From a virus (taxonomy: Duplodnaviria > Heunggongvirae > Uroviricota > Caudoviricetes), in IMG/VR virus record IMGVR_UViG_3300030379_000158: a DNA stretch of 64,000 nt, one strand, 5' to 3'. Below are positions 50,679 through 51,517 of the stretch, one piece after another; position 1 is the stretch's first letter; every line of letters starts with the position of its first letter. The notes beneath the pieces were generated by a model. The model did no database searches, had not been told where the DNA came from, and saw nothing but the letters and a program-made list of their open reading frames with translations. The position numbers were made by a program, and so were the translations under genes.

Positions 50679-51488
50679 ATGCAAGAAGAGAAACAACACT
50701 ACCTCTACGTTCTGGTGCCAGAGAACGGAGATACTTTTAAAATCGGCATTTCATGTGGTCCATTGGCACGGTTTAAAGGGCTACAAGTGAGTCCCGATTT
50801 TGCGCTTTCACGGGTCTATCGTGGTACGCGTTTGGCAATGGTTAATCTTGAGCGGGCTTTACACGCAACCTTTTTCCCCTGGAATGCGCCGTGGGAGAAA
50901 AGCGTCGGTGGCGGGCATACTGAATGGTTTACACGAGAGTGTCTTGATAAGGTTTTGGCTCATATCGAATATCTAAATGATATGTGGGGAGGGATTCTCG
51001 AGCGCATTAAGTCGAATGATTTACTTCAGCGTCCAGTAGATGCTGCTTGCTCTTTCGAAAAAGAGCTGGATGTTACTTCTATCGTGACTTTCAAAGATGA
51101 CGCAGGAATGAGGGACGTGGCTTATGTCTCCATATCTGGCTATGAACCGGACGCGATCCGCGCTCAATGTGAATTGCTGAAAGCAATGTTTATGCTTCGG
51201 ACTAAATATCCCTGGGATACAGGGCGGGTGTGCTTCCCTATGGAAGAGTTAACCGCCACCATTGATTCCCAGCTTTACCACGATAATCCAGAGAAGTTTT
51301 TTAGCCTTTTAGCCGGTAATGGGCTTAACTGTGTGTCCGGGCTGGGGCGAAGTAGAATCCAACATGCCTCGCTCTTCGGTCCCTTCTTTTACGATCGACA
51401 CGGGTACTTTGAGGCTGAACTTCCGGCGCTTACGCGTGCTATAGATACTATCGATTTCGAACGATTATTCGCTGCTCTTAGCAAATAA
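50679..51488 (+). CDS. T5orf172/GIY-YIG-like N-terminal domain protein with uncharacterised C-terminal domain (269 aa)
   Basis: YLYVLVPENGDTFKIGIS followed by GGHTEWF about 60 aa later, the pattern of the T5orf172 subgroup of GIY-YIG domains; own terminator downstream. Confidence 0.6.
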   Translation: MQEEKQHYLYVLVPENGDTFKIGISCGPLARFKGLQVSPDFALSRVYRGTRLAMVNLERALHATFFPWNAPWEKSVGGGHTEWFTRECLDKVLAHIEYLNDMWGGILERIKSNDLLQRPVDAACSFEKELDVTSIVTFKDDAGMRDVAYVSISGYEPDAIRAQCELLKAMFMLRTKYPWDTGRVCFPMEELTATIDSQLYHDNPEKFFSLLAGNGLNCVSGLGRSRIQHASLFGPFFYDRHGYFEAELPALTRAIDTIDFERLFAALSK

Positions 51489-51495
51489 CACTGAT

Positions 51496-51517
51496 GCCCC
51501 TGAACGGGGCTTTTTTG
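51496..51517 (+). terminator. Rho-independent terminator after the T5orf172-like gene
   Basis: GCCCC-TGAAC-GGGGC followed by TTTTTTG. Confidence 0.65.

What the first reader, a model, noticed from the sequence alone, without database searches (positions are those of the whole stretch)
50679..51517. Stand-alone T5orf172/GIY-YIG-like gene wedged between the incA iterons and the par promoter
The 269-aa product has a T5orf172-type GIY-YIG pattern (YLYVLVPENGDTFKIGIS, then GGHTEWF) fused to an about 170-aa C-terminal domain I cannot place. It sits in a gap that, as I remember P1, holds no gene, and it carries its own intrinsic terminator. A single-gene cassette with a nuclease-like domain at a plasmid maintenance junction is a plausible anti-phage or plasmid-competition gene. 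The identity of the C-terminal domain is the open question.
Basis: partly seen in the sequence, partly recalled or inferred. Interest (0 to 1): 0.6.

Follow-up and report, generated by a model that had tools for sequence, protein, structure and literature searches.

The report
Dispensable nuclease gene beside plasmid replicon
This is a real but already-annotated gene for a small DNA-cutting enzyme that rides at the edge of one of the two alternative replication modules of P1-like phage-plasmids; it is common, not needed for replication, often broken by mutation, and most likely a selfish "homing"-type nuclease rather than a new defence system.

Summary
The 269-aa ORF (50679-51488, +) and its terminator are real. 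It lies between the downstream iterons of repA and the P1 par promoter, where canonical P1 has no gene. It is not a sporadic cassette. It forms the right-hand end of a 2.25-kb block (49305-51554) that replaces P1's IncY replicon with the "p0111" replicon, and the block edges are identical in all 37 relatives examined. The gene is in 401 of 404 plasmid records with this replicon and in 7.6% of complete E. coli genomes. RefSeq calls it "GIY-YIG nuclease family protein"; the JL22 paper noted it as unknown gp57. The N-terminus is a T5orf172/GIY-YIG domain with motif residues intact. The C-terminal ~170 aa have no homologues outside this lineage. Low-confidence models suggest a winged-helix DNA-binding fold. 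The gene diverges far faster than its neighbours (44% identity against 84-89%). pN/pS is 0.31 against 0.02 and 0.002, and it carries recurrent nonsense and frameshift alleles. A related replicon in another phage-plasmid lacks it. Best reading: a dispensable, free-standing site-specific endonuclease of homing-endonuclease type. No known defence family matches, and no homology to Rep initiators was found.

The parts
49305..51554 (.). Block heterologous to P1: origin iterons, repA (p0111 type), downstream iterons, T5orf172 gene and terminator. It replaces P1 L001 2507-3997.
   Evidence: blastn of the window against P1 gives homology at 48757-49304 (89%) and from 51555 onward (98.9%), with nothing in between. 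The same edges occur in 37 of 37 related loci.
49320..49425 (+). Origin-side iterons: five copies at 21-22 bp spacing, core TTGACTATACGCGA.
   Evidence: the repeat finder families D1-D3 and the pattern search.
49502..50386 (+). repA, a Rep_3/'RepB family' initiator of the p0111 type (294 aa).
   Evidence: ORF list, RefSeq annotation of identical copies, and 42% identity to P1 RepA.
50387..50648 (.). Downstream (incA-like) iteron array. Two copies share the origin orientation (50387, 50411) and four are inverted (50506, 50568, 50600, 50630).
   Evidence: The iteron core is conserved in L003 and L051.
50679..51488 (+). T5orf172/GIY-YIG nuclease gene, 269 aa (phrog_2876; RefSeq 'GIY-YIG nuclease family protein'; JL22 gp57).
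50700..50933 (+). N-terminal T5orf172 nuclease domain (residues 8-85). Motif residues are Y8/Y10, K21-I-G, R31, E58, H62 and E82-W-F.
50979..51485 (+). C-terminal orphan domain (residues 101-269), fast-evolving and tentatively a winged-helix DNA-binding fold.
51496..51517 (+). Intrinsic terminator of the gene.
51555..51656 (+). Resumption of P1 homology: the par promoter/operator region (Ppar -35 at about 51574) upstream of parA (51657-52853).

Best explanation
The gene encodes a free-standing, site-specific DNA endonuclease of the T5orf172 (GIY-YIG superfamily) class. It has an N-terminal nuclease head, a linker, and a lineage-specific, rapidly evolving C-terminal domain that is probably a winged-helix DNA-binding module setting target specificity. 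It behaves as a homing-endonuclease-type selfish passenger lodged at the rep|par module junction of P1-like phage-plasmids. It is physically tied to the p0111-type replicon block. The inferred mechanism is as follows. When a carrier meets a P1-like genome that lacks the gene (IncY type), the enzyme cuts that genome in or near the corresponding rep-par region. Repair from the carrier then copies in the nuclease gene together with the adjacent replicon. The gene is not needed for replication, partition or phage growth, so once fixed in a lineage it drifts and is repeatedly inactivated. Shown here: domain identity, intact motif residues, position at the block edge, dispensability, fast evolution and recurrent decay. 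Inferred: nuclease activity, DNA binding by the C-terminal domain, the target, and homing.
Against: There is no 'empty-site' allele with homologous flanks. The gene is 100% linked to the replicon, and the block edges are identical in all loci, so there is evidence for only one ancestral acquisition and none for ongoing mobility. The family sits at a single locus with no paralogues elsewhere, unlike the expanded homing-endonuclease families in ICP1 or T5. It lacks the Zn-finger DNA-binding modules (CapR, DUF723, DUF4397) found in 87% of T5orf172 homing endonucleases (PMC10448857; no Pfam hit; only one conserved Cys in the C-terminal domain). Substitutions relative to P1 do not cluster next to the junction. 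The test for recombination breakpoints clustering at the gene was inconclusive because recombination is pervasive across the region. Both structural models are low confidence (pLDDT 54-55), so the fold assignments are tentative. No dedicated promoter was found.
Confidence: 0.45

Rival explanations
1. The gene is a weapon for inter-element competition or defence that benefits the phage-plasmid. The nuclease would be directed by its variable C-terminal domain against rival replicons or infecting phages. An example is an Odn-like origin-directed nuclease cutting the origin or iterons of IncY-type P1 or other plasmids. Fast evolution of the C-terminal domain would then reflect an arms race with targets.
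Against: No PADLOC model matches even at E <= 1. The C-terminal domain shows no sequence or profile similarity to its own RepA, to P1 RepA or to a Rep_3 profile (BLASTP E > 2; hhalign probability 0.2%). About 16% of sampled copies carry premature stops and pN/pS is 0.31, which is odd for a weapon under active selection, although costly defence genes are also often lost. The structural evidence comes from models with pLDDT around 54, and the winged-helix fold is very common.
Confidence: 0.25
2. The protein is a domesticated DNA-binding accessory of the p0111 replicon, like CapR, which is a homing-endonuclease-derived repressor. It would bind the iterons or the par operator and tune replication control or par expression, with the nuclease fold retained but not used for cutting.
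For: The gene is perfectly linked to the replicon in P1-like elements. The orthologue sits at the same position in a lineage whose capsid protein is only 80% identical. Iterons abut the start codon, and there is no terminator between repA and the gene, so co-transcription from the RepA-controlled promoter is possible. There is precedent in CapR and in I-TevI autorepression.
Against: A replicon with the same iterons and 85% RepA identity works without the gene. Null alleles (stops at codons 68 and 112, frameshifts) persist in many otherwise intact plasmids. The iterons, RepA, Ppar and ParA are conserved between lineages while the putative DNA-binding domain is only 33% identical, so it is not co-evolving with those sites. 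The catalytic-motif residues are strictly conserved, which would not be expected if cutting were irrelevant.
Confidence: 0.1
3. The gene is a decaying relic with no present function, hitch-hiking on a successful replicon block.
For: Inactivating mutations recur, constraint is relaxed compared with the neighbours, and no promoter is recognisable.
Against: About 84% of sampled copies are intact. pN/pS of 0.31 is well below 1. The ORF, its length and all motif residues survive in a lineage where synonymous sites are saturated, and dN (0.51) is far below saturation. That requires long-term purifying selection.
Confidence: 0.15

Closest known systems
T5orf172-family free-standing homing endonucleases of phages (ICP1 Gp53/121/130 and others; PMC10448857), and more broadly GIY-YIG homing endonucleases such as I-TevI and the Seg proteins of T4
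   Same: They share the T5orf172/GIY-YIG nuclease domain with conserved Tyr, Arg and Glu motif residues. They share the architecture of a nuclease plus a separate DNA-binding region. They are stand-alone intergenic genes next to essential genes and at the edge of an exchanged module, and they are frequently inactivated by stops and frameshifts.
   Different: Here the nuclease is N-terminal, and the DNA-binding part is an orphan, probably winged-helix domain instead of CapR/DUF723/DUF4397 Zn-fingers. The family occupies a single locus and is strictly linked to one plasmid replicon type. No empty-site allele and no evidence of current mobility were found. The host is a plasmid-prophage maintenance region and not a lytic-phage gene cluster.
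Odn (Gp88) of Vibrio phage ICP1, the origin-directed nuclease (PMC8263062)
   Same: Both are a T5orf172 nuclease fused to a DNA-binding domain, set in a context of iteron-controlled replicons and conflict between related mobile elements. Weak fold-level hits of the C-terminal domain include Rep WH1 domains.
   Different: Odn's DNA-binding domain is clearly homologous to RepA_N (42% identity). Here there is no detectable sequence or profile similarity to any Rep. The domain order is reversed, and the target is unknown.
CapR of the PLE satellite, a domesticated homing-endonuclease-derived repressor (bioRxiv 10.1101/2020.11.28.402263)
   Same: Both descend from T5orf172-associated homing endonucleases and sit in a mobile element, and a regulatory DNA-binding role is conceivable for both.
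   Different: CapR corresponds to the Zn-finger DNA-binding domain and has no functional nuclease. The protein here keeps a complete nuclease motif set and is dispensable for the replicon.
Slx1 / URI-domain GIY-YIG nucleases (PDB 6seh, 7cq2, 7wme)
   Different: Slx1 is a eukaryotic structure-specific nuclease with a RING/PHD domain and an Slx4 partner. The relationship is at fold level only.

Membership tests
T5orf172 domain (Pfam PF10544), GIY-YIG superfamily | Sequence match to the family profile above the curated threshold | tested here: met
   26.9 bits against a gathering score of 20, E = 6.9e-6, residues 8-85, profile positions 2-87 of 101. There is also a match to the phrog_681 'endonuclease' T5orf172 region at E = 7e-9.
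T5orf172 domain (Pfam PF10544), GIY-YIG superfamily | Motif residues: GIY-like Tyr, (K/Y)IG, catalytic Arg, catalytic Glu (the equivalent of Odn E180) | tested here: met
   Y8/Y10, K21-I22-G23, R31, E58, H62 and E82-W83-F84 are all present. They are invariant in the 44%-identical orthologue and in 21 intact alleles. The register agrees with the alignment to the GIY-YIG protein 1ywl, which is itself weak (E = 1.1).
T5orf172 domain (Pfam PF10544), GIY-YIG superfamily | GIY-YIG alpha/beta fold | tested here: inconclusive
T5orf172 domain (Pfam PF10544), GIY-YIG superfamily | Metal-dependent DNA cleavage | not testable with these tools
   This needs purified protein and an E82A control.
Free-standing homing endonuclease gene | Nuclease domain plus a separate DNA-binding domain, in a stand-alone intergenic gene near essential genes | tested here: met
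   Architecture (the DNA-binding assignment is tentative). The gene lies between repA/iterons and parAB and has its own terminator.
Free-standing homing endonuclease gene | Sporadic presence or absence among close relatives, with an empty site flanked by homologous sequence | tested here: not met
   The gene is present in 401 of 404 plasmid records of the replicon. The block edges are identical in 37 of 37 loci. Elements without it (IncY P1, L051) differ across the whole rep block or lose homology at the last iteron.
Free-standing homing endonuclease gene | Location at a boundary of genetic exchange | tested here: met
   P1 homology resumes at 51555, 67 bp after the stop codon at 51488 and about 40 bp after the terminator, in the window and in all relatives. 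The rep|par junction is also a breakpoint in IncY elements. The test for excess breakpoints among close relatives was inconclusive.
Free-standing homing endonuclease gene | Tendency to degenerate (stops, frameshifts, deletions) | tested here: met
   W68*, S112* and Q228* occur in 7 of 45 sampled copies. There is a 1-nt deletion in L049, further frameshift alleles P0011-P0016, and an IS1 insertion. Among the neighbours, repA and parA are each disrupted in only one locus (L009, a 1-nt length change in both genes).
Free-standing homing endonuclease gene | Cleavage of the gene-less allele and super-Mendelian inheritance | not testable with these tools
   This requires co-infection or co-residence crosses.
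Odn-type origin-directed nuclease | DNA-binding domain homologous to a replication initiator's iteron-binding domain | tested here: not met
   BLASTP against the element's own RepA and P1 RepA gives E > 2. hhalign against an 8-sequence Rep_3 profile gives probability 0.2%. The only signal is weak fold-level resemblance to Rep WH1 domains from low-confidence models.
Known anti-phage defence systems (PADLOC-DB 2.0) | Match to any defence-protein model | tested here: not met
   No hit at E <= 1 for the full protein or for the C-terminal domain.
Core component of the p0111-type replicon | Required wherever this RepA/iteron system replicates, and under constraint similar to repA | tested here: not met
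   L051 has RepA at 85% identity and the same iterons but no such gene. Null alleles persist. pN/pS is 0.31 against 0.02 for repA.

The most novel reading that the evidence does not exclude
The orphan C-terminal domain is a highly diverged Rep-WH1-like iteron-recognition module, and the protein is a plasmid-borne analogue of Odn. It would be a replicon-directed nuclease that cuts the origin or iterons of the rival IncY P1 replicon, or of other competing plasmids. That would both eliminate a par-incompatible competitor and drive replacement of its replicon by the p0111 block. It would explain why two replicon types coexist at similar frequency in P1-like phage-plasmids, and why the nuclease is welded to one of them.
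Probability: 0.12. Interest if true: 0.75.

Novelty: new member of a known kind. Interest (0 to 1): 0.35.

Why it matters
P1-like phage-plasmids are widespread carriers of resistance genes, and they come in two replicon flavours, IncY and p0111. This gene is the only extra coding capacity that distinguishes the p0111 block. It is present in about 7.6% of complete E. coli genomes, yet it has no assigned function. If it is an active site-specific nuclease that targets gene-less relatives, it would provide a mechanism for replicon replacement and competition among P1-like elements. It would also extend the 'nucleases mark recombination boundaries' principle from lytic phages to plasmid maintenance modules. 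As the evidence stands, it is an ordinary, already-annotated selfish-nuclease-type gene with an uncharacterised specificity domain.

Tried and rejected
(1) Odn-type chimera: the C-terminal domain was compared with its own RepA, with P1 RepA and with a Rep_3 profile. No similarity was found, so this is rejected at sequence level.

(2) Known defence system: PADLOC gave nothing.

(3) Identifying the C-terminal domain by sequence: Pfam, NCBIfam and PDB sequence searches gave nothing. An exhaustive HMMER profile search of 1.84 billion representatives returned only the family itself and fragments of it.

(4) Deepening the alignment for structure prediction: genome and viral contig scans yielded only copies at >=96% identity over the full length, plus two truncated matches. 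Both AF2 models therefore stayed at pLDDT 54-55, and the fold searches are only suggestive.

(5) 'Intermediate' homologues P0014 and P0016 (about 70% identity) turned out to be frameshifted copies of the same gene and not a third lineage.

(6) Recombination-breakpoint clustering at the gene among 38 close relatives: distance correlations between adjacent segments are low everywhere (0.09-0.5), so the test is not informative.

(7) Homing-site immunity polymorphisms: mismatches to P1 right of the junction are evenly spread.

(8) Defining an insertion junction with the gene-less relative L051: homology ends at its last iteron and no clean junction exists.

(9) A dedicated sigma-70 promoter: none is convincing or conserved between the lineages.

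(10) Known RNA families in 49100-51800: none.

(11) Long-term dN/dS: synonymous sites are saturated, so only dN could be compared.

Full report
**Observation**

- It carries the quoted motifs YLYVLVPENGDTFKIGIS (residues 8-25) and GGHTEWF (78-84).
- Pfam T5orf172 (PF10544) matches residues 8-85 at 26.9 bits, above the gathering score of 20.
- Residues 110-269 match nothing in Pfam, NCBIfam or PADLOC.
- A G+C-rich hairpin followed by a T-run lies at 51496-51517. It folds at -11.9 kcal/mol, z = -2.4 against shuffles.
- Upstream, six iteron copies occupy 50387-50648. The last ends 30 bp before the ATG.
- Downstream, the P1 par promoter and parA follow.
- No Rfam family matches the interval on either strand.

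**What the locus is**

Canonical P1 (NC_005856) indeed has no gene between incA iteron 1 and Ppar, only about 190 bp. But the window does not carry P1's replicon.
- Its RepA is only 42% identical to P1 RepA. ParA, ParB and the capsid protein are 99.7-100% identical to P1.
- blastn places the edges of the non-P1 block at window 49305 and 51554. The block holds the origin iterons, repA, the downstream iterons, this gene and its terminator.
- It replaces P1's incC-repA-incA-spacer (L001 2507-3997).
- The same two edges are found in all 37 related loci examined. This means one ancestral replacement and not repeated insertions.
- This is the 'p0111' replicon type of P1-like phage-plasmids. [quoted passage not shown] It also reports that 24 of 55 P1-like elements are p0111 and 31 of 55 are IncY (PMC9603915).

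**Distribution**

- The protein is a full-length member of phrog_2876 ('unknown function', E = 1e-194).
- It lies at this position in SJ46, RCS47, JL22, phi456, Ro157c2YLVW and other phage records.
- It is found in 401 plasmid records, all at >=90% identity. The replicon block itself is found in 404 records.
- It is in 412 of 5,426 complete E. coli genomes, with 414 of 421 places on plasmids.
- RefSeq names it 'GIY-YIG nuclease family protein'. One record mislabels it 'terminase small subunit'.

Outside this tight clade there is exactly one diverged orthologue, P0004.
- It is 44% identical and lies on a 95.7-kb P1-like contig in the same repA -> gene -> parA -> parB -> capsid order.
- Scans of genome and viral contig collections added only copies at >=96% identity over the full length, plus two truncated matches.
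- A profile of the C-terminal domain, searched exhaustively against 1.84 billion representative proteins, found only the family itself. The C-terminal domain is therefore a lineage-restricted orphan.

**Is it part of the replicon machinery?**

No.
- A 94-kb phage-plasmid of a different type (NZ_CP085065.1, L051) carries a replicon with RepA 85% identical and the same iteron consensus in both arrays. It has no trace of the gene and no adjacent par.
- Within the close clade, pN/pS is 0.31 for this gene. It is 0.02 for repA and 0.002 for parA in the same loci.
- 7 of 45 sampled copies carry premature stops from three independent mutations: W68 TGG->TAG, S112 TCG->TAG and Q228 CAA->TAA.
- Other lineages carry a 1-nt deletion (L049), several further frameshift alleles (P0011-P0016) or an IS1 insertion.
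- The S112* allele is common in the database as two separate ORFs (P0009 and P0003).

The gene is still not neutral junk.
- About 84% of sampled copies are intact.
- No motif residue varies among the 21 intact alleles.
- The ORF and all motif residues survive in the L003 lineage, where synonymous sites are saturated. There dN is 0.51 (N-domain 0.29, C-domain 0.69), against 0.07-0.13 for parA, repA and the capsid gene.

**Anatomy of the protein**

- The N-terminal domain keeps the T5orf172/GIY-YIG signature: Y8/Y10, K21-I-G, R31, E58, H62 and E82-W-F. These are invariant between the two lineages.
- The register agrees with a weak alignment to the GIY-YIG protein 1ywl.
- E82 corresponds to the glutamate whose mutation (E180A) inactivates the T5orf172 nuclease Odn (PMC8263062).
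- Only two diverged sequences exist, so AlphaFold models are poor: pLDDT 55 for the full length and 54 for the C-terminal domain.
- I read this as a tentative 'GIY-YIG-type nuclease + linker + winged-helix DNA-binding domain'.
- The C-terminal domain is the fastest-evolving segment of the whole region. It is 33% identical to L003, against 63% for the N-domain and 84-89% for RepA and ParA. Its DNA cannot be aligned at all, although both flanks align at 71-72%.

**Testing specific ideas**

- *Odn-type chimera.* The Odn precedent is a T5orf172 domain fused to a copy of a RepA iteron-binding domain that cuts the rival's origin. It predicted homology between the C-terminal domain and a Rep protein. 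BLASTP against the element's own RepA and P1 RepA gave E > 2. hhalign against an 8-member Rep_3 profile gave probability 0.2%. Only the weak fold-level resemblance remains.
- *Defence.* There is no PADLOC hit.
- *Regulator of its own iterons or Ppar.* Those DNA sites and their cognate proteins are conserved between lineages while this protein's putative DNA-binding domain is not. Null alleles are also tolerated.
- *Homing endonuclease.* Several hallmarks listed for T5orf172 homing endonucleases in PMC10448857 are met:
  - a stand-alone gene next to essential genes;
  - a position at the edge of an exchanged block, since P1 homology resumes 67 bp after the stop codon (about 40 bp after the terminator);
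  - a location that is a general rep|par breakpoint, because IncY elements with another par type lose P1 homology exactly at the end of incA and also have no gene there;
  - frequent degeneration.
- Hallmarks of a homing endonuclease that are not met:
  - there is no empty-site polymorphism and no sign of current mobility;
  - there is no Zn-finger DNA-binding module;
  - there are no paralogues;
  - substitutions do not cluster next to the junction.
- A test for excess recombination breakpoints at the gene was uninformative, because recombination is pervasive across the region.

**Expression**

- No conserved sigma-70 promoter precedes the gene.
- Conserved between the lineages are the iterons and a short AGTGGT...ATATG stretch, which is a weak Shine-Dalgarno.
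- No terminator separates the gene from repA.
- Read-through from the RepA-controlled promoter, ended by the gene's own terminator before Ppar, is the simplest inference. It is untested.

**Conclusion**

The most likely explanation (confidence about 0.45) is a dispensable, free-standing site-specific endonuclease of homing-endonuclease type. It entered P1-like elements together with the p0111 replicon block, or drove that block's entry, and is now in a fix-and-decay phase.

| Rival explanation | Confidence |
|---|---|
| Odn-like competition or defence nuclease that benefits the element | 0.25 |
| Functionless relic | 0.15 |
| Domesticated regulator | 0.10 |

The gene is already annotated and has been mentioned in the literature, and its N-terminal family is known. 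Its orphan specificity domain and its strict attachment to one plasmid replicon are the only unusual points. I rate it a new member of a known kind, with interest 0.35.

The most novel reading not excluded is a replicon-directed nuclease that targets the rival IncY replicon through a diverged Rep-WH1-like domain. I give that a probability of about 0.12. It would be interesting if true.

Noticed in passing
window 47447-48756: A 1310-bp IS3-family insertion sequence (orfA 47501-47827, orfB 47824-48714) is inserted between mlp and upfA. It interrupts otherwise 99.6% P1-identical sequence. Locus L010 has the same structure, and L030 has a 1313-bp insertion about 750 bp further left.
   Followed up: partly
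window 50104-50119 (inside repA): An iteron-like site, TGTTGACTATAAGCGA, lies inside the repA coding region. It is conserved in all three lineages of this replicon (L003 at 7612, L051 at 5396). It may be a functional intragenic RepA-binding site.
   Followed up: no
window 48757-49304: upfA plus the left part of oriR is only 89-90% identical to P1, while sequence further left is 99.6% and sequence right of 51555 is about 99%. The imported block may therefore extend left to the start of upfA.
   Followed up: partly
L051 (NZ_CP085065.1) 4500-6160: A 94-kb phage-plasmid that is not P1-like (tail genes, transglycosylase) carries a p0111-like replicon (RepA 85%, same iterons) without an adjacent par operon and without the nuclease gene. 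This replicon module therefore moves between phage-plasmid families.
   Followed up: partly
L056 (NZ_CP058720.1) 4536-4936: IncY-type P1-like plasmids with a different par type lose homology to P1 exactly at the end of the last incA iteron (query position 1320). They have only about 115 bp before parA. The rep|par spacer is therefore a recurrent module junction.
   Followed up: partly
Alleles of window 50679-51488 in L026, L027, L029, L030 and L031; proteins P0009 and P0003: The S112* (TCG->TAG) allele splits the gene into ORFs 1-111 (nuclease domain only) and 102-269 (C-terminal domain only). Both are called as proteins in hundreds of database entries, including the pO111-type plasmid of E. 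coli O111:H-. Whether the two halves still work together is unknown.
   Followed up: no
Protein P0005 (plasmid-encoded, 197 aa): This is a chimeric ORF. About 80 unrelated N-terminal residues are fused to residues ~106-224 of this protein, which points to a rearrangement within the gene in one plasmid.
   Followed up: no
OR339795.1 (phage phi456) 39982-40788: This record annotates the gene as 'terminase small subunit'. Given the T5orf172 domain and the position between repA and parA, this is a misannotation.
   Followed up: no
NZ_CP100998.1 61378-62964 (hit H277): A copy of the gene is interrupted by an IS1 element, which is another independent route of inactivation.
   Followed up: no
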